DNA of 32,000 nt from Candidatus Saccharimonadota bacterium (lineage in GTDB: Bacteria > Pseudomonadota > Gammaproteobacteria > Enterobacterales > Enterobacteriaceae). Where the stretch lies: contig CP188088.1 of assembly GCA_049942965.1 (NCBI GenBank), positions 498,864 through 530,863 on the forward strand. Reading direction: 5' to 3'. Both the position numbers and the translations under genes were made by a program. The notes beneath the pieces were generated by a model. That model was not told the DNA's origin. It was given only the letters and a program-made list of their open reading frames with translations, and did no database searches. Shown here one piece after another: positions 1,149-28,260 of this stretch. How positions within the stretch are numbered: position 1 is the first letter of the stretch; each line of letters opens with the position of its first letter.

Positions 1149-2741
1149 ATGAAAAAAAACAAAAAAACAAAAAGAGCTTTGATTAGCGTATGTAATACTT
1201 CTGGCATTATACACTTTGCAAAATTTCTTAATAAAAAAAAAATCAAGATTATAGCTACGGAAGGAACAAAAAAAATTCTACAAAAAAAAAACATTCCAGT
1301 AACATCAGTATCTGAATATATTGAATTTCCTGAAATAATGAACGGTAGAGTAAAAAGTATGCACCCAAAAATTTTTGGTGGGATTTTAGGAAGACAGGAA
1401 AAAGATACTGATATTATGAAACTATATGGAATTAAAAAAATTCATTTAGTTATAGTAAATTTATATCCTTTTTTAGAAAAACAAAAAACATTAAAAAATA
1501 ATTTTTTTGATTTAAGTGAATATATTGATATAGGTGGTGTTTCTCTTATTAGAGCTGCTGCTAAAAACTGTTCCGAAGTATTAGTTATAGTGTCTCCTGG
1601 AGATTATAACAAAGTTATCAAGATGATTGATTTAAATGGAATAGAATCTATACCTTTAGAAAAAAAAATAAAATTAGCACAAAAAGCTTTTTCATATACT
1701 TCACATTATGATGATTTAATTTCTAAATATTTTTTAAAGAAAATAAAAAAAACTGAAAAAAAAAATACATTTCCAGAAATATTAAAAATAAACTTAATAA
1801 AAAAAATACAATTAAGATATGGGGAAAATCCTCATCAAAAATCAGCTTTTTATATAGAAGAAAAAAATAAAAACAATATTTTTGAAAAATCTAAACAAAT
1901 ACAAGGAAAAAAAATATCTTATAATAATATTCTTGATTTAGAAATAGCTTGGAATTGTGTTCAAAACTTTAAAAACCCAGCTTGTGCTATTGTAAAACAC
2001 TCAATTCCATGTGGAGTATGCGAAAGCGAATCAACTATTAAATCATATACGTCTGCTTATCAATGTGATCCTATTTCAGCTTTTGGAGGAGTTATTTCCT
2101 TTAATTCTAAAATAAATCAAATAGTTGCTAAAACTATTTTAAAAAATCAATTTGTCGAAGTAATTATAGCACCTATAATTACTAAAAATGCTTTAGAAAT
2201 ATTTAAAAAAAAAAAAAACATAATAGTACTTACTTTAAACCAAAAAAAAAATACAACTTTTAATTTAGATTTCAAATCAAGCTTTGGTGGAATGTTAATT
2301 CAAGAACAAGACAATTGCTCATTCGAAAAAAATAATAAAAAAAAATATTGGAAAACAGTAACAAATAGAAAAATTATAACAAACAAAGAAAAAGAAGATG
2401 CAATATTCGCTTGGAAAATTGTAAAATATGTCAAATCCAATGCAATAGTTATTGTAAAAAATAGAAAAACTATTGGAATTGGATCTGGACAAACTAGTAG
2501 AATATTTTCTACTAAAATATCTAATTTAAAAGCAATAGAACAAAATTTAGACACTATCGGAGCAACAATGGCTTCTGATGCATTTTTCCCATTTTCAGAT
2601 AGTATAAAATTAGCAGCAAAAATTGGAATTACTTGTATAATACAACCAGGAGGATCGATACGTGACAAAGAAGTGATTTCAGCCGCAAATAAAAGTAATA
2701 TAATAATGTTATTTACAAATAAAAGATGTTTTAAACATTAA
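1149..2741 (+). CDS. purH: Bifunctional AICAR transformylase / IMP cyclohydrolase
   Basis: Colinear with E. coli PurH (529 aa): RALISV..., MNGRVKSMHPKIFGGILGR, LRYGENPHQ, SYNNILD, QPGGSIRD, ...CFKH end. The ATG at 1149 gives 530 aa. The track start at 1101 is an upstream TTG extension. Confidence 0.95.
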   Translation: MKKNKKTKRALISVCNTSGIIHFAKFLNKKKIKIIATEGTKKILQKKNIPVTSVSEYIEFPEIMNGRVKSMHPKIFGGILGRQEKDTDIMKLYGIKKIHLVIVNLYPFLEKQKTLKNNFFDLSEYIDIGGVSLIRAAAKNCSEVLVIVSPGDYNKVIKMIDLNGIESIPLEKKIKLAQKAFSYTSHYDDLISKYFLKKIKKTEKKNTFPEILKINLIKKIQLRYGENPHQKSAFYIEEKNKNNIFEKSKQIQGKKISYNNILDLEIAWNCVQNFKNPACAIVKHSIPCGVCESESTIKSYTSAYQCDPISAFGGVISFNSKINQIVAKTILKNQFVEVIIAPIITKNALEIFKKKKNIIVLTLNQKKNTTFNLDFKSSFGGMLIQEQDNCSFEKNNKKKYWKTVTNRKIITNKEKEDAIFAWKIVKYVKSNAIVIVKNRKTIGIGSGQTSRIFSTKISNLKAIEQNLDTIGATMASDAFFPFSDSIKLAAKIGITCIIQPGGSIRDKEVISAANKSNIIMLFTNKRCFKH

Positions 2742-8835: not shown

Positions 8836-9432
8836 ATGATGAAAAAAAAAAATAGCAAAAAAATTCGAATTATTGGAGGAAATTTAAAAGGAAGTATATT
8901 ATTTACAAAAAAATTTATCAATGTAAAACCAACAACAAACTATATGAGAGAAACATTATTTAATTGGATACGTCCAAAAATAAATCAATCAAATTGTTTA
9001 GATTGTTTTTCAGGAACTGGTGCATTGTCAATAGAAGCTATTTCGCAAGGAGCAAATTCAGTAATAGCTCTAGAAAAAAATAACAAAAATGTTTTTCTAG
9101 CTAAAGAAAATTTAAAAAGATTAAAAATTTTTAAAAAAATTAAATTTGTTATTTGCAACACTTTAATTTGGCTAAAAAAAAAAAGAAATATAAATTTTAA
9201 CATAGCTTTTATTGATCCTCCATTTAAAAAAAAAATGGTAGAAAAAACAGCTTTTTTATTAGAAAAAAATTGTTTTCTTACAAAAAATTCAATTATTTAT
9301 ATTGAAATGGAAAATAATAAAAAAAAAATTATAGTTCCAAAAACATGGAAACTTAAAAAAAAAAAAATAAAAAATAATGTTTTATATTTAATTTATAATA
9401 AAATCAATAATTGTAATTCTATTGTTGATTAA
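8836..9432 (+). CDS. rsmD: 16S rRNA (guanine966-N2)-methyltransferase
   Basis: 198 aa, the same length as E. coli RsmD/YhhF. Carries IRIIGG, PTT...RETLFNW, the SAM motif LDCFSGTGALSIEA and the catalytic FIDPPF. It sits divergent from ftsY, as in E. coli. Confidence 0.85.
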   Translation: MMKKKNSKKIRIIGGNLKGSILFTKKFINVKPTTNYMRETLFNWIRPKINQSNCLDCFSGTGALSIEAISQGANSVIALEKNNKNVFLAKENLKRLKIFKKIKFVICNTLIWLKKKRNINFNIAFIDPPFKKKMVEKTAFLLEKNCFLTKNSIIYIEMENNKKKIIVPKTWKLKKKKIKNNVLYLIYNKINNCNSIVD

Positions 9433-9489: not shown

Positions 9490-10044
9490 ATGAACAATAA
9501 AAACAAAATAGAAAGTATTTCTTTAAATGATTTTTTAAAAAACCCAATTGAAAAAATAAAGAAAAATCAAAAAAAAATATTAGCATTATTAAATAATAAT
9601 TTACCAATTGCATATTTAATTAAACCTGAATTACTAAAAAGATTTCTTGCAATTGAAACTGCTTATAAAGAAACAAAATCAAATATAAATTTATTAAAAT
9701 CATTATTCTTAAAAAAAAACCAAGATAGAGAAAATAAAATAAAAGAAAATCAATGTGGAAAATTTCTTATGTATGAATCATGGAATCCAGACAAAGATTT
9801 TTTAAATAAATCAGCTTTATGGGGTATAGATCTAAATGAATATCCAAAAAAAAGTGAATTAGCTTTATTTATATCATATTGGAAAGCTGAAGGAAGAATG
9901 TTTCACCACATACAATGGCAACAAAAATTGGCTAGAAGTTTACAACAAAGTAGATATTTGAATTTTAAAAAAACAATAAAAACAGATATAAATGAATTGT
10001 CTAATCCTGATTTAATTACTCCGGAAGGATTTAGAGGAAAGTAA
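9490..10044 (+). CDS. dnaT: Primosomal protein DnaT
   Basis: The C-terminal half (GKFLMYESWNPDKDF...ALWG, FISYWKAEGRMFHHIQWQQKLARSLQ ... PEGFRGK) matches E. coli DnaT (179 aa). It lies immediately upstream of dnaC (4-nt gap), as in E. coli. Confidence 0.87.
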   Translation: MNNKNKIESISLNDFLKNPIEKIKKNQKKILALLNNNLPIAYLIKPELLKRFLAIETAYKETKSNINLLKSLFLKKNQDRENKIKENQCGKFLMYESWNPDKDFLNKSALWGIDLNEYPKKSELALFISYWKAEGRMFHHIQWQQKLARSLQQSRYLNFKKTIKTDINELSNPDLITPEGFRGK

Positions 10045-10048
10045 AGTT

Positions 10049-10795
10049 ATGAAAAATTACTATCATTCAAAAATACTAAAAAAACTAAAACAATTAATTC
10101 CAAGTCGAATACAACCAAAATTTAAAAATGAAAAAGAATTGTTATCTTGGAATCAAAGAGAGGGAAAAAAATTTTCTCAATCCATAATTAGAGAAAATAA
10201 AGCAATTAAAATGGAAAAAATACTAGGAAATTCCGGAATAAGAGAATTATATATGAACTGTTCATTTGATAATTATCAAATTCAACACGACGGACATAGA
10301 AAAGTAGTAAACTCTGCTAAAAAATACGCAGAAGAATTTAATTCCAATATTGCAAGTTTTATTTTTTCAGGACGTCCAGGTACTGGAAAAAATCATTTAG
10401 CATCAGCTATTGGAAATTATTTAATTTTACATGGAAAAACTGTTTTAATAGTTACAGTAGCTGATCTAATGTCTAATATGAAGAATACTTTTAACAATTC
10501 TAGTAGAACTACAGAAGAAAAACTAATAAATACACTTAGTACTGTCGATTTACTAATGATTGATGAAATTGGAATGCAAACAGAATCACGATATGAAAAA
10601 GTAATAATAAACCAAATTGTAGATAGAAGATCTTCTTCAAAACGATCAACAGGAATGTTGTCAAATTTAGATCATAAAGGAATGACAGCTTTACTTGGAG
10701 AAAGAGTAATTGATAGAATGTGTTTAGGGAATAGTTTATGGCTTACTTTTGAATGGGATAGCTATAGAAAATACATTACAGGAAACGAATTTTAA
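10049..10795 (+). CDS. dnaC: Helicase loader DnaC
   Basis: 248 aa against 245 in E. coli. Carries NCSFDNYQ, NIASFIFSGRPGTGKNHLASAI (Walker A), LLMIDEIG (Walker B) and IVDRR. Confidence 0.94.
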   Translation: MKNYYHSKILKKLKQLIPSRIQPKFKNEKELLSWNQREGKKFSQSIIRENKAIKMEKILGNSGIRELYMNCSFDNYQIQHDGHRKVVNSAKKYAEEFNSNIASFIFSGRPGTGKNHLASAIGNYLILHGKTVLIVTVADLMSNMKNTFNNSSRTTEEKLINTLSTVDLLMIDEIGMQTESRYEKVIINQIVDRRSSSKRSTGMLSNLDHKGMTALLGERVIDRMCLGNSLWLTFEWDSYRKYITGNEF

Positions 10796-15433: not shown

Positions 15434-15464
<31 letters not shown>

Positions 15465-17180
15465 TTAACTTTTATTATTTAATTCAAAATTAATTATCTT
15501 TTGTTGAAAAATAGTAAAAATATTACTAGTAATGTAGTATAAAACTAATCCTGATGGAAAGTATAAAAAACACAAAGTAAATAGTATTGGAACTAAATTC
15601 ATCATATGTTTTTGAACAGATTCTATAGCTTCATTCGAAGAACTTTTTTGAATTATCCACATTGTATATCCCATAAAAATAGGAAAAATGAAGTAAGGAT
15701 CTTTATCTGACAGATCATTAATCCAAAGTAAAAATGGTGCATGACGCAATTCTACAGAATTGACTAACATATAATATAAACCTAAAAATATAGGCATTTG
15801 AACTATAATAGGTAAAAATCCACCAAATGGATTTATTTTGTTTGAATTATATAACTTAATTATTTCCTTGCTTATTCTTTGATTATCATTTTTATATTTT
15901 ATTCTGATTGAATCAATTTTAGGTTGAATTAATTTTACTTTTTCCATAGATATATACTGAGATCTTGCTAATGGATACATTAAAGATCGAATAAATATAG
16001 TTAAAAATACTATCGACCAACCCCAATTTCCAATAAAAAAATATAATAAACTAAGAATGAAAAATAACGGCTTAGATATAAACCATAGATATCCATAATC
16101 TAAAGTTAAATCTAAATTTGGTGCTAACTCAAGCATTTTATTTTGCATAGCAGGACCAGCCCATAATTTTGAAACAAAAGTAAAACTTTTATTTGGTAAC
16201 AAATGAACTTGTTCGAATTTATATCCTAAAGTTAAAATATTATTAGTTTTTTTATTTGTATAAATTATATTATTGTTCATTTTTGAAATTTGAGGAATCC
16301 AAGCTGCTACGAAATATTTTCGAATCATTGCTATCCAACCATATTTTGCTTGTTCTGATATGATCTTATCATTTGTTGCATACAAAGAACTCTTTTCGTA
16401 TTTTTCTAAATCAGTAGAGTATGCAATGCTTCGATATTTTTGAGAAATAAAGCTATCTTTATTAAAATTTGAATTATTATTAGTATAATTAATTGGAATA
16501 TCAACAGTTTGTTTTAGTTCATTAAAAAATGATATGTCTATTGCTTTACCAGAATTGTTCAATACAGTATTTTCTATTTTAACAAAATACTTTCCAAGAT
16601 ATAAAATAAAAGTTTTTTTATACTCAATTCCAGTAAATAAATCAATCCAAATAAATGGAATCCTTAGTTCTGTTTTGGAAGAATTAGTTGAAAAAAAAAT
16701 TCTTCTATTAAATATATTTTTTTTATTAGTTATATCTAATTTTAAATTTATGATTTTTCCGTCTTTTTTAAATATTAATCCTTCATTTGCTTGATAAATG
16801 AAATCAGATTGTTTATCTAATAAACAAAAGGGAGAACCAGAACCTAAATGATCACTATATTTTAATAAATAGACTTTATTGATAGTTCCATTATTTTTAT
16901 TCACAACCATAGAAATTACATCATTGCTTAATACAATATATTTGCTGTTTTTCTTGTTATTATAATACTGATATACATTTTTTTTATGACCATATTTATT
17001 ATCAATTTTAAAATTATTATTAATATATTTAGACTTAGTCGTTTTTTTTATACTATTGTTTTCATTTTGAAAATTCGATATATTAGTGGGAATTTTTATA
17101 TCTTTACAAAAAGAATTCCAAATAATAAAAAGGACAAAAAAAAACGAAATAATAAAAATGTTTTTTTGAAGAGAACTCAT
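15465..17180 (-). CDS. yidC: Membrane protein insertase YidC
   Basis: 571 aa against 548 in E. coli. It has an N-terminal TM segment, a large periplasmic domain and a conserved C-terminal core (ISKPLF..L...F..GNWGWSI...T...R....PL, MQMPIF..LY). It sits in the conserved rpmH-rnpA-yidD-yidC-mnmE cluster. Confidence 0.95.
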   Translation of the reverse strand: MSSLQKNIFIISFFFVLFIIWNSFCKDIKIPTNISNFQNENNSIKKTTKSKYINNNFKIDNKYGHKKNVYQYYNNKKNSKYIVLSNDVISMVVNKNNGTINKVYLLKYSDHLGSGSPFCLLDKQSDFIYQANEGLIFKKDGKIINLKLDITNKKNIFNRRIFFSTNSSKTELRIPFIWIDLFTGIEYKKTFILYLGKYFVKIENTVLNNSGKAIDISFFNELKQTVDIPINYTNNNSNFNKDSFISQKYRSIAYSTDLEKYEKSSLYATNDKIISEQAKYGWIAMIRKYFVAAWIPQISKMNNNIIYTNKKTNNILTLGYKFEQVHLLPNKSFTFVSKLWAGPAMQNKMLELAPNLDLTLDYGYLWFISKPLFFILSLLYFFIGNWGWSIVFLTIFIRSLMYPLARSQYISMEKVKLIQPKIDSIRIKYKNDNQRISKEIIKLYNSNKINPFGGFLPIIVQMPIFLGLYYMLVNSVELRHAPFLLWINDLSDKDPYFIFPIFMGYTMWIIQKSSSNEAIESVQKHMMNLVPILFTLCFLYFPSGLVLYYITSNIFTIFQQKIINFELNNKS

Positions 17181-17237
17181 TGTTCTAGTCTCATTATTTA
17201 ATGCAATTCATTGTATAATTTAAAAAACAAAATTAAA

Positions 17238-17366
17238 TTATAAATAAGGATGACATTTAATTAGCCTTTTAATGATTAAAAAAAAATCTGTTAAAAAACC
17301 GTTTTTAATCAAAACTAATTTTGCATATTCTGAACATGAAGGATAAAAACAACATCTTTTTACCAT
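17238..17366 (-). CDS. yidD: Membrane protein insertion efficiency factor YidD, short form (42 aa from the ATG; homology continues upstream to 17414)
   Basis: Not in the ORF track. My hand translation is MVKRCCFYPSCSEYAKLVLIKNGFLTDFFLIIKRLIKCHPYL*. It matches the YidD core C(R/C)F.P(T/S)CS.Y......G...G......R...CHP. It lies between rnpA and yidC, as in E. coli. Confidence 0.7.
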   Translation of the reverse strand: MVKRCCFYPSCSEYAKLVLIKNGFLTDFFLIIKRLIKCHPYL

Positions 17367-17418
17367 AAAAAAATAACAAATTTTTGATAAAAAACTATTA
17401 AATAAATAAAAAATTTAA

Positions 17419-17775
17419 TTATTTTAATAGATAATTTGTTTTCCATAATTTTTTTAACAAATTCATTAACTTACTGTTATCTAAATCCATAGATGACTTC
17501 TTTATTATCAGAACGTGATCCATTGGAACTAATAATATATTTTGAGATATACGAAATGTTTCTCTAACTAATCTTTTTATTCTATTTCTCTCATTAGACT
17601 TTTTAATATTTTTTTTAGATATAATTATTCCAATTCTTGAATGTTGAAAAGTATCATTTTTTCTAGATAAAAGGACTAATTCTTTGAAAGCAATTCTTTT
17701 TGGATTTAAAAAAACATAGTTAAAATCTTTACGATTCAATAACCTCATTTGTTTTCTAAAACGACATCTATACAA
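17419..17775 (-). CDS. rnpA: RNase P protein component
   Basis: Carries MRLLNRKDFNYVF..., SRIGIIISKKNIKKSNERNRIKRLVRETFR (RNR motif) and LKKLW. The TTG at 17775 directly follows the rpmH stop and gives 118 aa, the E. coli-like length (119). The alternative ATG at 17748 gives 109 aa. Confidence 0.9.
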   Translation of the reverse strand: MYRCRFRKQMRLLNRKDFNYVFLNPKRIAFKELVLLSRKNDTFQHSRIGIIISKKNIKKSNERNRIKRLVRETFRISQNILLVPMDHVLIIKKSSMDLDNSKLMNLLKKLWKTNYLLK

Positions 17776-17931
17776 CTATTTCCCTACTCTATGACAAGAA
17801 ACAGTTAAATAAACACGGGATTTTGACCTGCGACGAGATAAAATATGACGACCATTTTTTGTAGACATTCTTGACCTAAATCCATGAGAACGTTTTTTTT
17901 TTATTTTAGAAGGTTGAAAAGTTCTTTTCAT
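17776..17931 (-). CDS. rpmH: 50S ribosomal protein L34
   Basis: Not in the ORF track (51 aa). My hand translation is [51 protein letters not shown], against E. coli [46 protein letters not shown]. It is divergent from dnaA, as in E. coli. Confidence 0.95.
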
Positions 17932-18210
17932 TTATTATTATTAATCCTCAATAAAATCCGTATATAATCTATTTTATATTTAGAATAATAATTCTAATAC
18001 ACTGAGTCAATAAAATCGAAAAAAATCTTTAAAAAAAATTATATAATTTATAAAAAAATATTAAATAAAATTAAATTTTTGAAATGATTTTAATAAAATT
18101 TTAAAAATATCAAAATTTTTTTTGTTTATGATTGACATATTACTATATTTAAGAAAAACACATTATTACCTGAATAAATTTTATTATTTCTGAATATCAA
18201 CTTTGTTCGT

Positions 18211-19583
18211 ATGGAGTCTTCTACCGTGTCGTTTTTGCTTTGGCAACGATGTCTTTTTAATTTACAAAAAAAATTAACACCTACAGAATTTAGTATGTGG
18301 ATACTTCCCTTAAAACCGAAATTGATTACTAATAATACATTAATACTATATGCTCCAAATCAATTTGTTTTTGATTGGATTAAAGAAAAATACATCGCTA
18401 ACCTAAATCAATCTATATTAGATACATTCGGAAAAAATAAACCAATACTACAAATTAAAATAAATAAAAAAAAAAAAAAAAAAAAAAATATAAAAAAACA
18501 AAAATTGTAGAATCTATAAATTTTAATATAAATAGTGTATCATTAACAAAATTGGAATCTAATAGTTCTTTTTTAAACAAAAAATATAAATTTGAAAATT
18601 TTATAGAAGGAAAATCTAATCAATTAGCGAAATCCACTGCATATCAAATAGCTAATAAAATAGGAAATCTTTATAATCCTTTATTTTTATATGGAAAAAC
18701 AGGTTTAGGAAAAACTCATTTATTACACGCAATAGGAAATACAATTGTATATAAAAAAAAAACGAATAAAGTAATATACATGCATTCAGAACAATTTGTT
18801 CAAAACATGGTAAAATCAATTCAAGAACATTCAATTGAAAAATTTAAAAAATTTTATCGATCAGTCAATGTTTTACTCATCGACGATATACAATTTTTTG
18901 CAAATAAAGAACATTCTCAAGAAGAATTTTTTCATACTTTAAATACTTTATTAGAAAGAAACCAGCAAATTATATTGACATCTGATAGATATCCTAAAGA
19001 AATAAATGGAGTGGAAGAGAGATTAAAATCAAGATTTGGATTAGGATTAACTATTTCAATCGATCCTCCCGAATTAGATACTAGAATTTCTATTCTGCTA
19101 AATAAAGCAAAAGAAAAAAACATTTTATTACCTATTGAAATAGCTTTATATATAGCAAAAAAATTAAAATCAAATATTCGTGATTTGGAAGGAGCATTAA
19201 ATAAGATTATAGCTCAATCAAAATTTATAAACCAATCTATTACTATAGATTTTGTTAGAGAAACATTAAAAGATCTATTTTCAATACAAGAAAAAATAAT
19301 CACAATGGAAAAAATACAAAAAACAGTAGCAAAATACTACGAAATTAAAGTTTCTGACTTGTTATCTAAAAAACGATCTAAATCAGTAGTTCAACCACGA
19401 CAGATAGCAATGACTATGTCAAAAAAATTAACTAATCATAGTTTTCCTGAAATTGGAAAAGCATTTGGAAATCGAGATCATACAACTGTTTTACATGCTT
19501 ATCGGAAAATAAATAAACTTCAAAAAGAAAAAAAAAACATGAAACAAGATCTATTAAATTTAATAAAAATGTTATCACTATGA
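18211..19583 (+). CDS. dnaA: Chromosomal replication initiator DnaA, interrupted by a frameshift in an A23 tract (pseudogene, sequencing error or slippage-rescued)
   Basis: The ORF at 18211-18510 is domain I (LWQRCL..L...L...[25 protein letters not shown]). The ORF at 18552-19583 carries the end of the linker, the AAA+ domain ([62 protein letters not shown]) and domain IV (RQIAM...[22 protein letters not shown]). A GTG at 18226 is a possible alternative start (MSFLLWQRC). Confidence 0.93.
18466..18488 (+). repeat. A23 homopolymer inside dnaA (frameshift site)
   Basis: I counted an uninterrupted A run from 18466 to 18488. The frame change between the two dnaA ORFs must occur within 18468-18507. 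Confidence 0.95.
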
Positions 19584-20697
19584 AATTTACTATACAAAAA
19601 GAAGAAATAATAAAATCACTTAAAAAAACTAATGTTTTATTAGGAACAAGAACAGATCTACCGATATTAAGTAATATTTTAGTTTTTATTAAAAAAAACT
19701 ACTTATTTCTTACATCTACTAACTTAGAAATTGAAATAACTACTAAAACATATTTGAAATTACCTTTCCAAGAAGGAAAAACAACCGTTCCTGGTAAAAA
19801 ATTTCTAGATATATGTCGCTCTTTTCCAAAAAAAGAAAACCTAATAATTTTCCAAAAAGAAAACAAAGTTATAATTACTTCGAAAAAAATTTTTTTTTCT
19901 TTAATTACATTACCTCATAAAAATTTTCCTATATTTCCTAATGAATTAAAAAAAAAAAAATTGATTTTTTTATTTCAGAAAAAATTTTAAAAAAAAGCAT
20001 AAAACATACAAATTTTTGTATGGCACATTCAGATGTTCGTCACTATTTAAATGGTACATTATTTGAAATAAAAAACAATTATATTAAAAGTACATCAACA
20101 GATGGATATAGAATTTCAACTTATAAAAAAAATATTAAAACAGAAAGTTTAAAAGAATCAATAATTATTCCTAGATTAACGATTAACGAATTGTTTAAAA
20201 TTTTACAAGATAAATCTTCTTTGATAAAAATATCTATTTTTGAAAAAAAAAATATTTGTGTTAAAACTAATGATTTAACTTTTACTAGTAAATTAGTAGA
20301 TGGAGAATTTCCAAACTGCAAAAATTTATTTGCAAAAGAAAAAAACAGAAAAAAAATAATAATAAACAAAACAAAATTCCAAGATGCATTACATAGAATT
20401 TCAATTTTATGTAATGAACAACTTAATGGAATTTCTTTGTTTATTGACGATAAATACATAAAAATCACAAGTCAAAATCAAAAAGATGAATTCGCAGAAG
20501 AAACAATAGAAATAATTAATCAAAATAATTTAAAAAAAATTAATATTTCTATAAATGTAAACTACATTTTAGATGTGATAAAGGTAATAGAAGGAACTTC
20601 GATCCAACTAATAATTAATCAAGATCTATCTAACATTCAAATTAAGGATTGTGAAGATAGCTCTTCTAAATATTTAATAATGTCTCTTCGAATATAA
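19580..20697 (+). CDS. dnaN: DNA polymerase III beta sliding clamp, interrupted by a frameshift in an A13 tract (pseudogene, sequencing error or slippage-rescued)
   Basis: The ORF at 19580-19990 begins MKFTIQKEE...LPILSNIL...[16 protein letters not shown]...FSLITLP..NFP. The ORF at 20020-20697 begins [15 protein letters not shown], then [17 protein letters not shown] and YLIMSLRI. Together they are colinear with E. coli DnaN (366 aa). The start overlaps the dnaA stop (ATGA at 19580-19583). Confidence 0.93.
19948..19960 (+). repeat. A13 homopolymer inside dnaN (frameshift site)
   Basis: I counted an uninterrupted A run from 19948 to 19960. The downstream frame opens at 19945, after the TGA at 19942-19944. 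The upstream frame closes at the TAA at 19988-19990. Confidence 0.95.
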
Positions 20698-20829
20698 AAA
20701 AAATACTTTTTAAATAAAAAATATTTTGATTAAAAAAATTAAAAATCTTTTCTTTAATTAAGTTTAAAAAAAATATATATGTTTATAAAAAATACTTTTT
20801 CGTAAAATAATTATAAATTTATTGATTAA

Positions 20830-23259
<2,430 letters not shown>

Positions 23260-23300
23260 AAAAATAAAAAAATTGAATAAAAAAATATATATTTTAAATT

Positions 23301-23340
23301 TTTTAATAAAAAATACGGCAGGAGCAATCTTGACCTGCCG
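23301..23340 (-). terminator. Intrinsic terminator candidate for the atp operon (GC-rich 7-bp stem plus T-rich tail on the minus strand)
   Basis: cggcagg (23316-23322) pairs with cctgccg (23334-23340) around an 11-nt loop. The minus-strand continuation reads tatttttattaaaa. It sits 27 nt downstream of the atpC stop, between convergent gyrB and atpC. There is no T-tract on the plus side. Confidence 0.55.
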
Positions 23341-23366
23341 ATCAAATGAAATAAAAAATTTATATT

Positions 23367-23780
23367 TTATTTACAATTAATCATATTAATGATTTTTAAT
23401 TTTTCTAAGGATTCTTGTAATTTATTTAAAATATGATTTTTATTATTTTGACTAAAATCCTTATTTTTAATTTTTCTTTCCAAATTTTTTTTTTCTTTTA
23501 AAATTAATTTTTTATTTAGATCTTTTTTAAATATAATTGTATCTGAAAAGATCGTAACTTTTTCAGGTTTTACTTCTAGAATTCCTGAAGATAAATAGAT
23601 AAATTCTTTATTTTTTAATTCTTTTTCTATTAATAATAACCCCGGTTTTAAATAAGTAAGTAAATGTGAATGACCTGGATAAATTCCTAACTGTCCTAAT
23701 ATCCCTGTTACGTTAATTTTTAATATAAAACCAGAAAAAAAAACTTTCTCCATGCTAATTAAACTACAATAAAAACGCAT
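23367..23780 (-). CDS. atpC: F1 ATP synthase epsilon subunit
   Basis: 137 aa against 139 in E. coli. Carries FFSG...KI.VTG..G.LGIYPGH..LLT.LKPG and FIYLS.GILEV.PE.VTI..DT. It is the last gene of the atp operon. Confidence 0.9.
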   Translation of the reverse strand: MRFYCSLISMEKVFFSGFILKINVTGILGQLGIYPGHSHLLTYLKPGLLLIEKELKNKEFIYLSSGILEVKPEKVTIFSDTIIFKKDLNKKLILKEKKNLERKIKNKDFSQNNKNHILNKLQESLEKLKIINMINCK

Positions 23781-23823
23781 AAATAATACCTTAATTTTAA
23801 CTAATGAAAAATAAGAATTCTAT

Positions 23824-25227
<1,404 letters not shown>

Positions 25228-25245
25228 TTACTTCTATTCTAAATT

Positions 25246-26112
25246 TTATAAAATTGCAGAAGAACCTGAAATAATTTCAGTTAGTTCTTGAGTAATACTA
25301 GATTGACGTAATTTGTTATAAATTAATCTATATTCATGAATTGATTTTTTGCTGTTATCAGTAGCTGTTCTCATGGCTATCATACGAGCAGATAACTCGC
25401 TAGAAATATTTTCTAATATATTTTTATATATTTTAGATTCAATAAATTTATTCAAAATAACATCTAATAAAAAATAAAAATTTGGTTCATATAGATAACT
25501 CCAATTTTTTTTTTTTTTATTGTTATCTTTTAAAATAATCGGTAATAATTTAACAAACTTTGGATTATACATCATTGAATTTTCAAAGTGATTATAAGAA
25601 ATATAAATTTCATCAATTAATTTAGAATTATAAGAATTTAAAAATTTTTTAATAGAGCTTTTAATTTTAATAAAATCAAAACGTTCACTAATACTATCTG
25701 AATAAGAGACAATTTTATTCTGATAATTAGAAAAAAAATTTAATCCTTTCAAACCAAAAATAATTAATTCATAATCAATATTATTCTTTAGCAATCGTTT
25801 TATTTCAAATAGTATTTTTTTAAAAAGATTATTGTTCAAACTACCACACAAACCTCTATTTGTAGAAATAATGATTATTCCTACTTTTTTTATTTTTCTT
25901 TCTTCTAAATAAAGATGTTTACAACTTAAATTATTCTCTAAAACAACATTTTTAACAAGTTTCTTTATATTATTTAAATAATGAAAACTATCTATCATCT
26001 TAATTTTCATTTTTCTCATTTTAGAGACAGCAACCATTTCCATTGCTTGAGTAATTTTTTGAGTATTTAAAACAGCATTAATTTTATCTCTAATTTCTTT
26101 CGATGAAGACAT
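25246..26112 (-). CDS. atpG: F1 ATP synthase gamma subunit
   Basis: From the ATG at 26112 the product is 288 aa: MSSSKEIRDKINAVLNTQKITQAMEMVAVSKMRK ... QSSITQELTEIISGSSAIL, colinear with E. coli AtpG (287 aa). The track start at 26145 would overlap the atpA 3' end and adds non-homologous residues. Confidence 0.93.
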   Translation of the reverse strand: MSSSKEIRDKINAVLNTQKITQAMEMVAVSKMRKMKIKMIDSFHYLNNIKKLVKNVVLENNLSCKHLYLEERKIKKVGIIIISTNRGLCGSLNNNLFKKILFEIKRLLKNNIDYELIIFGLKGLNFFSNYQNKIVSYSDSISERFDFIKIKSSIKKFLNSYNSKLIDEIYISYNHFENSMMYNPKFVKLLPIILKDNNKKKKNWSYLYEPNFYFLLDVILNKFIESKIYKNILENISSELSARMIAMRTATDNSKKSIHEYRLIYNKLRQSSITQELTEIISGSSAIL

Positions 26113-26135
26113 TGATAATCCTAAAATTATATTTT

Positions 26136-27713
26136 TTATGTACAATTTGAAAAAAAACCATTAACCTCTTCTTTTTTAAAACGGTTAATTACCGATAAAA
26201 AAGCAATTTCAATATCTTTATTATATTTTCCCGATAAATTAATAGAATTAATTAAACTAGAATAATTTTGATTAAAAAATTTTAAAAAAAAATATTCGAA
26301 AAGAACAATATTTTTTACTTCTATGGAATCTAAAAAACCATTTTCATAAATAAATAACAATATTCCTTGTTCAGCAATAGAAATCGGAGAATATTGTTTC
26401 TGTTTTAGTAATTCAATAATTTTTTCTCCATAAATCAATTGTTTTCTAGTTGATGGATCTAAATCAGAAGAAAACTGAGAAAACGAAGATAATTCTCTAT
26501 ACTGGGCAAGAGCTGTACGAATCTTTCCTGAAAAAACTTTTATTATTTCTCTTTGAGCCGAACTACCAATTCTAGAAACTGAAATTCCAGGATTAATAGC
26601 AGGTCGAATTCCCGAATTAAATAAAGAAGTTTCTAAAAATATTTGACCGTCAGTAATTGAAATTACATTTGTAGGTACAAATGAAGAAACATCACCTGCT
26701 TGTGTTTCAATTATAGGTATAGCTGTTAATGAACCAGTTCTATTTCTAACAGAACCATTAGTAATTCTTTCAACACAACTAGAACTAATTTGAGCTGATC
26801 GCTCTAACAATCTAGAATGTAAATAAAAAATATCTCCTGGATAAGCTTCTCTTCCAGGAGGACGTTTTAATAATAATGAGATTTGTCGATAAGCTACTGC
26901 ATGTTTAGATAAATCGTCATATATAATTAAAGCATCTTCGCCTCTATCTCTAAAAAATTCTCCCATACAACAACCTGAATATGGAGCCAAATATTGTAAA
27001 GCAGCAGATTCAGACGCTGAAGCTACTAAAATGATCGTATGATCTAACGAGTCATATTCTTTTAATTTTTGTACAATATCAACTACTGTAGAAATTTTTT
27101 GTCCTATTGCTACATATATACACTTTACATCAGAATTTTTTTGATTAATTATTGTATCTATAGCAATAGCTGTTTTTCCTGTTTGTCTATCTCCTATAAT
27201 TAGTTCTCTTTGTCCTTTTCCTATTGGAATCATGGAATCAATAGCTTTATAACCGGTTTGGATTGGTTCATTGATAGATTTTCTATCGATTACACTTGGA
27301 GCATCCACTTCTATAGACGAAAATGAATCATTTTTTATTATCCCTTTTCCATCTATAGGTTCTCCTAAAGTATTCACAACTCTTCCTAATAAATTTCTAC
27401 CAACAGGAACTGAAAACACCTTACCTGTACATTTAACAATCATTCCTTCCACAATTTTCTGACAAGAACCAAGAACTACAGCTCCAACTACATCTCTTTC
27501 TAAATTCAATACAATTGCATATTGAACTATTATATCTTCTCCTTGTAATACAAGCATCTCACCCAACATAGCATTAGGTAAACCATAAATTTCTATTATT
27601 CCGTCAATAACTGAAATTATTGTTCCTTCATGACTTGTTATACAGTTAGCAATATCAAGTTCATTTATTCTTTTTTGAATTAAGTTACTTATTTCAATTG
27701 CATTAACTCTCAT
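26136..27713 (-). CDS. atpA: F1 ATP synthase alpha subunit
   Basis: 525 aa. Carries the Walker A motif [18 protein letters not shown], then [41 protein letters not shown] and [15 protein letters not shown]. Confidence 0.98.
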
Positions 27714-28260
27714 TAGTTACTTTCTCTTTACTATTCAAAAAATTATTTATTTGTCTCATTTGAGCTAAAATTGAAAAATCAATTTTTTTACCATCAACTA
27801 ATATAATTAAACCACCGATAATAGATTTATCTATTTTTTGTTTTATTAAAATTTTTTTTAATGGATAATCTTTAACTAGTTTTTTAGTGATTTTATCTAG
27901 AATTAATGATTCTATTCGATAAACAGAAATTAAAAAAATCTCAATAATATTATCTTTCAAATTTTTAAGAATAGAAAATTGTTTTAATATCTCTGGAAGT
28001 AAAAGTAAACGATTGTTCTCTATAATTAGAGAAAGTAAATTTCTAACTTTTCTATCAATTTTATTATTTAATACAGAATAAAAAATTTCCAAAACATAAT
28101 TTTTTGAGAAAAAAATTTTTTTTTTTACTATATCTAATTCAATAACTTTAGAAAACAAATCTAATACATATTCCCAATATTCTATTGATCCATCTTTTAC
28201 AGCTATATTTAAAATAGCTTTCGAATAATTACGAGCAATTGTTATTCTATTTTGTAACAT
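27703..28260 (-). CDS. atpH: F1 ATP synthase delta subunit
   Basis: 185 aa. The N-terminal [16 protein letters not shown] resembles E. coli ITVARPYAKAAFDFAV, and GG..I.V....D.S is present near the C-terminus. It sits between atpF and atpA, and its 3' end overlaps the atpA start by 11 nt. Confidence 0.9.

What the first reader, a model, noticed from the sequence alone, without database searches (positions are those of the whole stretch)
18466..18488. dnaA reading frame is broken inside a 23-nt poly(A) tract in the domain I/III linker
The upstream dnaA frame (codon starts 1 mod 3) runs through an uninterrupted A23 run at 18466-18488 and stops at TAG 18508-18510. The downstream frame (0 mod 3) is closed by TAA 18465-18467 and open from 18468 onward. 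The frame switch must therefore lie in 18468-18507, most of which is the A run. One extra A, or two fewer, yields ...LQIKIN-K8[45 protein letters not shown]..., a DnaA of normal architecture. The downstream part has no ATG before the Walker A motif; the ORF-track start is a TTG with no visible Shine-Dalgarno. Domains I, III and IV are all well conserved. This looks like a gene still under selection, not a decaying pseudogene. The three explanations are homopolymer miscalling, a true genomic frameshift rescued by RNA-polymerase slippage on the A tract, or a recent inactivation. From memory, slippage rescue of this kind has been reported for Buchnera and Blochmannia poly(A) tracts.
Basis: partly seen in the sequence, partly recalled or inferred. 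Interest (0 to 1): 0.7.

Follow-up and report, generated by a model that had tools for sequence, protein, structure and literature searches.

The report
Frame-broken dnaA at a poly(A) run
In an aphid symbiont (Buchnera of Tetraneura akinire) the replication-initiator gene dnaA is split by a run of 23 A's; this is a familiar kind of endosymbiont frameshift that polymerase slippage can repair, and the run's exact length is not securely measured in this assembly.

Summary
A23 lies at 18466-18488. The dnaA domain-I frame stops at TAG 18508-18510, and the domain III/IV frame is open from 18468. A24 or A21 would give an intact DnaA of 457 or 456 aa.

The window is Buchnera aphidicola of Tetraneura akinire (CP188088), assembled from Nanopore R10.3 reads and polished with Pilon using 75-bp Illumina reads. 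Independent k-mer assemblies of both read sets stop inside the run, so the length "23" has no independent support.

Closest strains (99.2% identical) carry A6-G-A14, which is 21 nt, in frame and intact. A window-specific G>A change at 18474 fused the two runs; both read sets confirm this change. dnaA has dN/dS of 0.05-0.10 and no other lesion.

The neighbouring dnaN carries a frameshift at A13 (19948-19960). It is present in all ten assemblies from three Tetraneura hosts, with dN/dS about 0.18 on both sides of the shift. This lineage therefore already expresses an essential replication gene across a poly(A) frameshift.

- **Best reading (about 0.5):** a recent, real out-of-frame tract rescued by slippage.
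- **Main rival (about 0.38):** the length was miscalled and the gene is intact.
- **Pseudogene:** about 0.07.

This is a new member of a known kind (Tamas 2008; Wernegreen 2010). Interest is modest.

The parts
18211..18510 (+). dnaA 5' reading frame (domain I plus the start of the linker), 99 codons, ending at TAG 18508-18510
   Evidence: ORF list; Pfam DnaA_N E=1.5e-18
18466..18488 (+). Uninterrupted A23 tract where the frame switch must occur. It encodes the poly-Lys start of DnaA domain II.
   Evidence: Relatives have A6-G-A14 (21 nt), A6-G-A15 (22 nt) or A6-TGT-A3-G-A14 (27 nt) at this site.
18474..18474 (+). Window-specific G>A change (GAA Glu to AAA Lys) that fuses two shorter A runs into one long run
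   Evidence: Position as placed by the gapped alignment, in which the 2-nt gap is put at the start of the run. The Illumina contig L029 ends ...ATAAAT+A9 and the ONT-run contig L041 ends ...ATAAAT+A7, whereas relatives have G as the 7th base.
18468..19583 (+). dnaA 3' reading frame (linker, AAA+ domain III, DNA-binding domain IV). It has no ATG before Walker A; the first start-like codon is TTG 18552.
   Evidence: Pfam Bac_DnaA 9.3e-69 and Bac_DnaA_C 6.2e-34
19580..19990 (+). dnaN 5' frame (beta-clamp domain 1), 136 codons
19948..19960 (+). A13 tract holding a second frameshift, in dnaN. Like the dnaA break it needs +1 A. It is conserved in every Tetraneura Buchnera assembly examined.
19945..20697 (+). 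dnaN 3' frame (clamp domains 2 and 3), open from 19945

Best explanation
The window comes from Buchnera aphidicola of the gall aphid Tetraneura akinire. Its dnaA is a functional gene, not a decaying one. A very recent G>A transition removed the single G that interrupted the Lys-coding run in the flexible domain I/III linker (A6-G-A14 in the closest strains). That created one pure, hypermutable poly(A) tract, which then changed length by replication slippage to an out-of-frame value (23 as assembled).

Full-length DnaA is still made because a 23-nt A run cannot be copied faithfully:
- RNA polymerase slips on the A:T hybrid and produces transcripts with 21, 24 or 27 A's. The needed +1 A is among the insertion products that RNA polymerase makes on A runs.
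- Ribosomes can also slide on poly(A).
- The many genome copies per Buchnera cell probably differ in tract length.

The in-frame products differ only in the number of lysines in a linker that tolerates length changes.

Shown: the tract, the frames, the fusion mutation, the intact state in relatives, past purifying selection, and a conserved, selected poly(A) frameshift in the adjacent dnaN of the same lineage.

Inferred: that the true modal genomic length is out of frame, and that slippage supplies the protein.
For: **Tract and frames:**

**Identity of the organism.** The window is 100% identical, with no gaps, to two Logan contigs from SRR33632138 over 12.8 kb. That run is the Illumina run of strain TA, accession CP188088.

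**The fusion mutation is real.** Both the Illumina and the ONT k-mer contigs read A beyond the 6th base of the run, where six relatives have G.

**Relatives are intact.** Five assemblies of a 99.2%-identical strain have a 21-nt in-frame linker, T. sorini has 27 nt in frame, and T. ulmi is in frame.

**The gene is constrained.** dN/dS is 0.05-0.10 in both parts. There is no other stop or indel. Against the closest strain there are 3 synonymous differences and none that change the protein outside the tract.

**The assembly is otherwise sound in coding DNA.** Against that strain, over 21 kb, all 7 indels lie in or next to A or T runs (six in runs of at least 7) and 6 are intergenic. Every coding tract of 9-14 nt agrees.

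**Precedent in the same operon.** The dnaN A13 frameshift is identical in 10 assemblies from 3 host species. dS reaches 0.6, and dN/dS is 0.16-0.22 both upstream and downstream of the shift in the three between-species comparisons. There are no further lesions.

**Contrast with real decay.** The truly decaying yidD shows 8 substitutions in 146 nt and an extra indel between close strains.

**The linker tolerates variation.** It is hypervariable and Lys-rich across Buchnera.

**Literature**
- 12-50% of transcripts are corrected at poly(A) frameshifts in Buchnera and Blochmannia (PMC5009743, citing Tamas 2008).
- dnaX and dnaG are frameshifted in Blochmannia (PMC3017870).
- Ribosomes slide on poly(A) (PMC4363877).
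Against: - The length 23 is not independently verified. The assembly is Nanopore R10.3/Guppy 4.2.3 plus Racon plus Pilon with 75-bp reads, and k-mer assemblies of both read sets stop inside the tract.
- Parsimony from the relatives predicts A21 (G>A alone), which is in frame. A24 is one base from the call.
- The only other tract longer than 20 nt here also differs between strains: 26 versus 24 and 22.
- Unlike dnaN, the dnaA break is not conserved in any relative, so the selection-maintains-it criterion is not met.
- A genome-wide error survey in Buchnera detected no transcription error that restored a reading frame (PMC5574713).
- No RNA or protein data were available.
Confidence: 0.5

Rival explanations
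1. Assembly or base-calling artefact. The genome really has an in-frame pure tract (A24 giving K8, or A21 giving K7) and the deposited consensus is off by one or two bases. dnaA would then be an ordinary intact gene with a long poly-Lys linker.
For: - The platform and pipeline are weak at long homopolymers. Most Nanopore systematic errors sit at homopolymers (10.1101/2020.09.19.304949).
- Independent Illumina-only and ONT-only k-mer contigs all end inside the tract, with 9, 13 and 7 A's retained. Nothing corroborates 23.
- G>A alone on the relatives' A6-G-A14 gives A21, which is in frame.
- PCR stutter and Nanopore under-calling both favour reading 24 as 23 (my own knowledge).
- Even an A14 versus A15 discrepancy appears among otherwise identical contigs from sibling runs (L030 versus L031, L032 and L035).
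Against: - The polished assembly agrees perfectly with the Illumina contigs at every other site over 12.8 kb.
- It has no spurious coding indels over 21 kb against a close strain.
- Real poly(A) and poly(T) frameshifts demonstrably exist in this genome: dnaN and yidD are both seen in Illumina-only contigs.
- If slippage blurs the frame at such lengths, there is little selection to keep the tract in frame, so two of every three lengths are out of frame.
- A Logan assembly of another run does cross an A22 tract (L033), so long tracts are not always unassemblable.
Confidence: 0.38
2. Recent true inactivation. dnaA has just become a pseudogene in this strain and no useful amount of full-length DnaA is made. 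Replication would start without DnaA, as in some other insect endosymbionts that lack the gene.
For: - The frame is broken as deposited.
- The event is too recent to have left any decay signal, so decay cannot be excluded.
- The strain's genome paper lists 29 pseudogenes.
- yidD next door is really decaying.
- From my own knowledge, loss of dnaA is known in Wigglesworthia and Blochmannia.
Against: - dnaA is retained and strongly constrained in all compared Buchnera.
- The lesion is the one kind that slippage repairs, at a tract far longer than those shown to give 12-50% corrected transcripts.
- The same lineage keeps a frameshifted dnaN under selection.
Confidence: 0.07
3. Two-piece or N-terminally truncated expression. 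Domain I would be made as a 99-aa peptide, and domains III-IV would be made separately from an internal start (TTG 18552), so that no frame correction is needed.
For: An ORF-finder start (TTG 18552) exists upstream of the ATPase domain.
Against: - There is no ATG and no Shine-Dalgarno-like purine run before TTG 18552.
- There is no excess of promoter-like sites (8 found, 8.9 expected).
- All relatives encode one continuous protein.
- From my own knowledge of E. coli DnaA, domain I must be tethered to domain III for helicase loading.
Confidence: 0.02
4. Programmed recoding or regulation. The tract would be a selected device, like the dnaX ribosomal frameshift site or a phase-variation switch, that sets the ratio of a short domain-I peptide to full-length DnaA.
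For: Two consecutive replication genes (dnaA, dnaN) both need +1 A at poly(A) tracts. The dnaN tract length is frozen at 13 across species.
Against: - The dnaA state is unique to this strain and relatives are in frame.
- There is no stimulatory structure downstream (z = -1.1) and no SD-like element.
- The tract arose by a single AT-biased substitution.
Confidence: 0.03

Closest known systems
Poly(A)-tract frameshifts rescued by transcriptional slippage in Buchnera and Blochmannia (Tamas et al. 2008 PNAS; Wernegreen et al. 2010 MBE)
   Same: - An AT-rich obligate insect symbiont.
- A single frameshift inside a long A run in an otherwise intact, constrained gene.
- The repair needed is +1 A.
- Annotators of Buchnera genomes already treat such genes as functional.
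   Different: - The tract is about twice as long as the 9-12-nt tracts described there.
- The gene is the replication initiator.
- The dnaA break is strain-specific rather than conserved, and its genomic length is unverified.
- No transcript data exist for it.
Frameshifted replication genes dnaX and dnaG in Blochmannia vafer and B. floridanus (Williams & Wernegreen 2010, PMC3017870)
   Same: Core replication genes are interrupted in homopolymeric tracts yet show no accelerated evolution. One of those frameshifts is shared between species. The dnaN case here matches this closely.
   Different: The genes differ (dnaA, dnaN) and so does the symbiont lineage. The dnaN frameshift here spans three host species, with dS up to 0.6.
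Ribosome sliding on lysine-encoding poly(A) (Koutmou et al. 2015, PMC4363877)
   Same: Iterated AAA codons in a bacterial mRNA. Sliding changes frame and lowers output.
   Different: It was shown in E. coli reporters as a loss-of-output mechanism. Here it would be a secondary route to regain the frame, and it is untested.
Homopolymer length errors in Nanopore-based assemblies
   Same: A single-base length discrepancy in a run of at least 20 nt, in an R10.3 plus Racon plus Pilon assembly, that splits a conserved gene.
   Different: The rest of the assembly agrees with short-read contigs. Bona fide homopolymer frameshifts coexist in the same region.

Membership tests
DnaA (chromosomal replication initiator) | N-terminal domain I, an AAA+ ATPase domain III with Walker A, and a C-terminal helix-turn-helix domain IV, in that order | tested here: met
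   Pfam DnaA_N, Bac_DnaA and Bac_DnaA_C. GKTGLGKT is present. The protein is 99% identical to intact Buchnera DnaA P0001 and P0121.
DnaA (chromosomal replication initiator) | One continuous reading frame | tested here: not met
   As deposited, the frame breaks in A23. A24 or A21 restores it.
Slippage-rescued poly(A) frameshift genes of endosymbionts (Tamas 2008 class) | A single frameshift located inside an A or T homopolymer of at least 9 nt | tested here: met
   The switch is confined to 18468-18507, which is mostly A23. dnaN: A13.
Slippage-rescued poly(A) frameshift genes of endosymbionts (Tamas 2008 class) | Gene otherwise intact and under purifying selection | tested here: met
   dnaA dN/dS is 0.05-0.10 with no other lesion. 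This measures history before the break. After the break only 3 synonymous changes are available.
Slippage-rescued poly(A) frameshift genes of endosymbionts (Tamas 2008 class) | Frameshift conserved among populations or species (the Wernegreen 2010 criterion for selection maintaining it) | tested here: not met
   dnaA: relatives are in frame at 21 or 27 nt, and one sibling-run contig has 22 nt. By contrast dnaN meets the criterion in all 10 assemblies.
Slippage-rescued poly(A) frameshift genes of endosymbionts (Tamas 2008 class) | Genomic tract length established by accurate sequencing | tested here: inconclusive
   Nanopore plus Pilon assembly. Illumina and ONT k-mer contigs end inside the tract.
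Slippage-rescued poly(A) frameshift genes of endosymbionts (Tamas 2008 class) | A heterogeneous mRNA pool containing frame-corrected transcripts, and full-length protein | not testable with these tools
   No RNA or protein data are accessible. The type (RNA or DNA) of runs SRR71865xx could not be established.
Programmed ribosomal frameshift site (dnaX type) | A slippery heptamer with an upstream SD-like element and a downstream stimulatory hairpin, conserved among relatives | tested here: not met
   The downstream 82 nt fold no better than shuffles (z = -1.1). There is no SD-like run. The state is not conserved.
Decaying pseudogene | Additional lesions or elevated substitution relative to neighbours | tested here: not met
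   dnaA has none. The positive control yidD shows 8 substitutions in 146 nt and a further indel in L033.

The most novel reading that the evidence does not exclude
The pure A23 tract in dnaA, together with the fixed A13 frameshift in dnaN, could act as a slippage "rheostat". It would cap or stochastically vary the supply of initiator and clamp, and so couple symbiont chromosome replication to transcription and translation fidelity (for example to temperature or host state) in a bacterium that has lost most initiation control. Tract-length differences among the many genome copies would serve as the heritable tuning knob.
Probability: 0.04. Interest if true: 0.7.

Novelty: new member of a known kind. 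Interest (0 to 1): 0.3.

Why it matters
If the out-of-frame length is real, the master replication initiator of an obligate symbiont depends entirely on polymerase or ribosome infidelity. The tract is about twice as long as those studied so far. Next to it sits a clamp gene that has lived with such a frameshift across three host species. That would extend the "impaired and rescued" model to the core of chromosome replication. It would also show how one AT-biased substitution can turn a harmless Lys linker into a hypermutable switch.

Practically, the finding is a warning for annotation. This dnaA, and dnaN, should not be scored as lost functions. Homopolymers longer than 20 nt in Nanopore-plus-Pilon symbiont genomes should not be trusted to the base.

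Tried and rejected
1. **Single-position bubble at 18475.** The two Illumina contigs abut the tract with 9 and 13 A's (22 = 23 - 1). That is what a SNP bubble in a k=31 graph would give, and it would have supported a 23-nt path. As a control I examined the A26 tract. There the Illumina contigs keep 17 and 21 A's, which overlap, and the ONT-run contig keeps 16. The contig ends are therefore idiosyncratic dead ends, and 9 + 13 is probably coincidence.
2. **Internal promoter or restart for a domain III-IV protein.** The promoter-like scan gave 8 sites against 8.9 expected, and there is no ATG or SD.
3. **Programmed ribosomal frameshift cassette.** There is no downstream structure.
4. **Exact-protein look-ups of the 99-aa fragment.** Not on record. 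A first rpmH look-up used wrong coordinates and was repeated correctly.
5. **Whether runs SRR7186527, 528, 545 and 616 and SRR14373458 are RNA or DNA.** This matters because the A15 variant could be a transcript. The accessions are absent from the searchable literature and from the supplements of the T. nigriabdominalis genome paper.
6. **Tamas et al. 2008 itself is not held**. Its figures are quoted second-hand from PMC5009743 and PMC3017870.
7. **The companion preprint (10.1101/2025.04.02.646943)** does not mention dnaA, pseudogenes or frameshifts.

Full report
**1. What is in the sequence**

The window has 24.3% G+C. At 18466-18488 there are 23 consecutive A's, flanked by T18465 and T18489.

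- ORF 18211-18510 (ATG start, codon starts 1 mod 3) encodes 99 residues. It passes through the run as seven AAA (Lys) codons plus the first two bases of an AAT codon, and stops at TAG 18508-18510.
- The frame 0 mod 3 is closed by TAA 18465-18467 and then open to the stop at 19581-19583.
- Pfam finds DnaA_N in the first piece, and Bac_DnaA (ATPase) plus Bac_DnaA_C in the second.
- In silico, A24 gives a 457-aa protein and A21 gives 456 aa. A22 and A25 remain broken.
- There is no in-frame ATG before the Walker A motif. The first start-like codon is TTG 18552.

A run of at least 23 is expected about 5e-4 times per window from first-order composition.

**2. Where the window comes from and how it was sequenced**

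A DnaA-based scan of species-representative genomes found Buchnera aphidicola (Tetraneura sorini), CP188087, as the nearest genome. It is 98% identical within dnaA and about 95% over 7 kb.

Exact-protein look-ups of the window's GyrB, YidC, MnmE and L34 hit only Logan assemblies of two runs:
- SRR33632138
- SRR32628560

These are the Illumina and Nanopore runs of B. aphidicola from Tetraneura akinire (strain TA, CP188088, 530,863 bp) in PMC12243488. The window is 100% identical, without gaps, to two Illumina-only contigs over 12.8 kb.

The published pipeline was as follows:
- GridION FLO-MIN111 (R10.3) with Guppy 4.2.3 HAC
- miniasm and Racon
- three rounds of Pilon with 75-bp paired NextSeq reads

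The text names a "TruSeq RNA Library Prep Kit" for the Illumina libraries. It lists 29 pseudogenes for strain TA.

**3. Is the length 23 trustworthy?**

No independent assembly crosses the tract.
- Illumina contig _56011 (L029) ends ...ATAAAT+A9.
- Illumina contig _36625 (L028) begins A13+TATAAAAAAACA.
- The ONT-run k-mer contig (L041) ends ...ATAAAT+A7.
- The same contigs also break at the only other tract longer than 20 nt nearby, the intergenic A26 at 15439-15464.
- They run straight through A13 and T14 tracts.

I considered that 9 + 13 = 23 - 1 might mark a one-base bubble, which would support a 23-nt path. The A26 control shows overlapping ends of 17 and 21 A's, so this reading is not supported.

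Against the closest other strain (L034 and L033, 99.2% identity over 21.3 kb) there are 167-171 substitutions and only 7 indels. All 7 lie in or next to A or T runs (six in runs of at least 7), and all are intergenic except the one in dnaA. Both tracts longer than 20 nt differ in length (26 versus 24 and 22; 23 versus 21).

The polished assembly is therefore reliable for tracts up to 14 nt but unverified for this one. A Logan assembly of another run does span an A22 tract (L033), so failure to cross is not inevitable.

**4. What relatives show at the same place**

| Source | Sequence at the site | State |
|---|---|---|
| Five assemblies of the 99.2% strain (SRR7186545, SRR7186528, SRR7186527, SRR14373458, NCBI MAG GCA_035718965.1) | A6-G-A14 (21 nt, KKEKKKK) | intact DnaA |
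| Sibling run SRR7186616 (no mismatch to the three contigs from its own run series, SRR7186545, SRR7186528 and SRR7186527) | A6-G-A15 (22 nt) | split gene, 93 + 343 aa |
| T. sorini | A6-TGT-A3-G-A14 (27 nt, KKCKEKKKK) | intact |
| T. ulmi (OZ060366.1) | A9-G-A10... | intact |

The sibling-run result shows that even a 14-nt run is unstable or hard to read.

The window alone has lost the interrupting G (position 18474, GAA to AAA). The Illumina and ONT contig ends both confirm A's beyond the sixth base. G>A alone would give A21, which is in frame. The deposit has two more A's, and A24 would again be in frame.

The tract sits at the beginning of domain II, which is hypervariable and Lys-rich across Buchnera. 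In-frame length changes should therefore be harmless.

**5. Selection**

Nei-Gojobori estimates for dnaA among T. akinire, the 99.2% strain, T. sorini and T. ulmi give dN/dS of 0.05-0.10 in both the domain-I part and the domain III-IV part, with dS up to 0.48.

Between the window and the closest strain there are only three synonymous differences plus the E>K change in the tract. The gene has been strongly constrained, but the break is too young for any test of constraint since it arose.

**6. The neighbours give the key context**

*dnaN.* It is also split (19580-19990 and 20020-20697; Pfam clamp domains 1, and 2 plus 3). The switch lies inside A13 at 19948-19960 and, like dnaA, needs +1 A.
- The A13 and the split are identical in all ten assemblies examined, including T. 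sorini and T. ulmi.
- dS reaches 0.6, yet dN/dS is 0.16-0.22 both upstream and downstream of the shift in the three between-species comparisons, with no further lesion.
- The T. ulmi record carries a 372-aa product over 1118 nt, so the gene was annotated across the shift. This follows the authors' stated policy, based on Tamas et al. 2008.

This is a conserved, selected frameshift in an essential gene. It is strong indirect evidence that the lineage reads through poly(A) frameshifts.

*yidD.* As a negative control, yidD (about 17238-17450, minus strand) lost one T from a T7 run in the T. akinire/nigriabdominalis lineage. It now shows 8 substitutions in 146 nt between the two close strains, about five times the background rate. 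These include a Cys>Tyr change in the Cys-rich CCFYPSC stretch, and L033 has an extra indel. That is what real decay looks like here. dnaA and dnaN do not look like that.

**7. Mechanism**

Published work establishes the following:
- Poly(A) frameshifts in Buchnera and Blochmannia yield 12-50% frame-corrected transcripts through RNA-polymerase slippage (PMC5009743, summarising Tamas 2008).
- Such frameshifts can be conserved by selection and occur in dnaX and dnaG (PMC3017870).
- Bacterial RNA polymerase adds up to six extra bases on runs of 9 A or T.
- Ribosomes slide on iterated AAA codons (PMC4363877).

One dissenting note: a genome-wide error survey in Buchnera saw no frame-restoring event (PMC5574713).

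For a 23-nt run all these processes should be far more active than at 10-13 nt. From my own knowledge, Buchnera cells hold many genome copies, so replication slippage should also create a mixed population of tract lengths. I therefore expect all three frames to be populated whatever the modal genomic length, which also weakens selection on that length.

I found no sign of a dedicated device:
- There is no downstream RNA structure (z = -1.1).
- There is no SD-like element.
- There is no excess of promoters for an internal transcript.

**8. Weighing the explanations**

*(a) Real out-of-frame tract rescued by slippage, about 0.5.*
- For: real homopolymer frameshifts are common and tolerated in this genome, the assembly is otherwise accurate, and two of every three lengths are out of frame if selection is weak.
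- Against: the length is unverified and the state is not conserved.

*(b) Miscalled length, with the true tract A24 or A21 and the gene intact, about 0.38.*
- For: the platform, the contig breaks, parsimony (G>A alone gives A21), and a stutter or under-call bias that would read 24 as 23.

*(c) Other readings.*
- Recent inactivation: about 0.07.
- Split or internal-start expression: about 0.02.
- A selected regulatory device: about 0.03.

**9. Comparison with what is known, and novelty**

The phenomenon, its mechanism and even the annotation practice are established. What is particular here:
- the gene involved is the replication initiator;
- the tract is about twice as long as those described;
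- its origin can be traced to one substitution that removed an interrupting G;
- it stands beside a dnaN frameshift conserved across three Tetraneura hosts.

That makes it a new member of a known kind. Its own reality hinges on a base count that this assembly cannot guarantee, so interest is modest (0.3).

Noticed in passing
window 19580-20697 (A13 at 19948-19960): dnaN is frameshifted inside an A13 run and needs +1 A. The same A13 and the same split occur in all ten assemblies from T. akinire/nigriabdominalis, T. sorini and T. ulmi. dN/dS is about 0.18 on both sides of the shift, with dS up to 0.6. This is a conserved, selected frameshift in the beta-clamp gene.
   Followed up: yes
window about 17238-17450, minus strand: yidD is broken by loss of one T in a T7 run, a loss shared with the 99.2% strain; the gene is intact (69 aa) in T. 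sorini and T. ulmi. There are 8 substitutions in 146 nt between the two close strains and an extra T9/T10 indel in L033. It looks like a truly decaying pseudogene.
   Followed up: yes
window 15439-15464: An A26 run lies directly downstream of the yidC stop (T26 on the coding strand). Its length is 24 and 22 in two close strains. The Illumina and ONT k-mer contigs all end inside it, with 17, 21 and 16 A's retained.
   Followed up: partly
L030 1037-1058 (Logan SRR7186616): In this contig the dnaA linker is A6-G-A15, which is frameshifted (93 + 343 aa). Contigs from sibling runs SRR7186545, 528 and 527 are otherwise identical and have A6-G-A14. This could be population polymorphism, transcript slippage (if the runs are RNA) or a sequencing artefact. 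The run type could not be established.
   Followed up: partly
window 18474/18476 (ends of L029 and L028): The two Illumina contigs map to 15444-18474 and 18476-28259, leaving exactly one base uncovered (9 + 13 A's = 22). This looked like a one-base bubble. The A26 control did not show the same pattern, so it is probably coincidence.
   Followed up: yes
PMC12243488 methods (strain TA, CP188088): The genome paper says the Illumina libraries used for Pilon polishing were made with a "TruSeq RNA Library Prep Kit". If they were really cDNA, polishing could import transcript slippage products into the genome sequence.
   Followed up: no
window 2205-2218 (purH), 9355-9367 (rsmD-like), 25505-25518 (atpG, minus strand): Other coding A13-A14 runs are in frame. 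The two covered by relatives have the same length in the 99.2% strain. Among coding runs of at least 13 nt in this window, 2 of 5 are out of frame (dnaN, dnaA).
   Followed up: partly
L036 11359-12476 (T. ulmi, OZ060366.1): The public T. ulmi record carries a 372-aa DnaN product over 1118 nt, so it was annotated across the poly(A) frameshift. The Logan assembly of the same DNA calls two ORFs (140 + 213 aa).
   Followed up: yes
window 9490-10795: The primosome genes dnaT (184 aa) and dnaC (248 aa) are retained next to each other in this 0.53-Mb genome, according to Pfam labels on the homologous loci L033 and L034.
   Followed up: no
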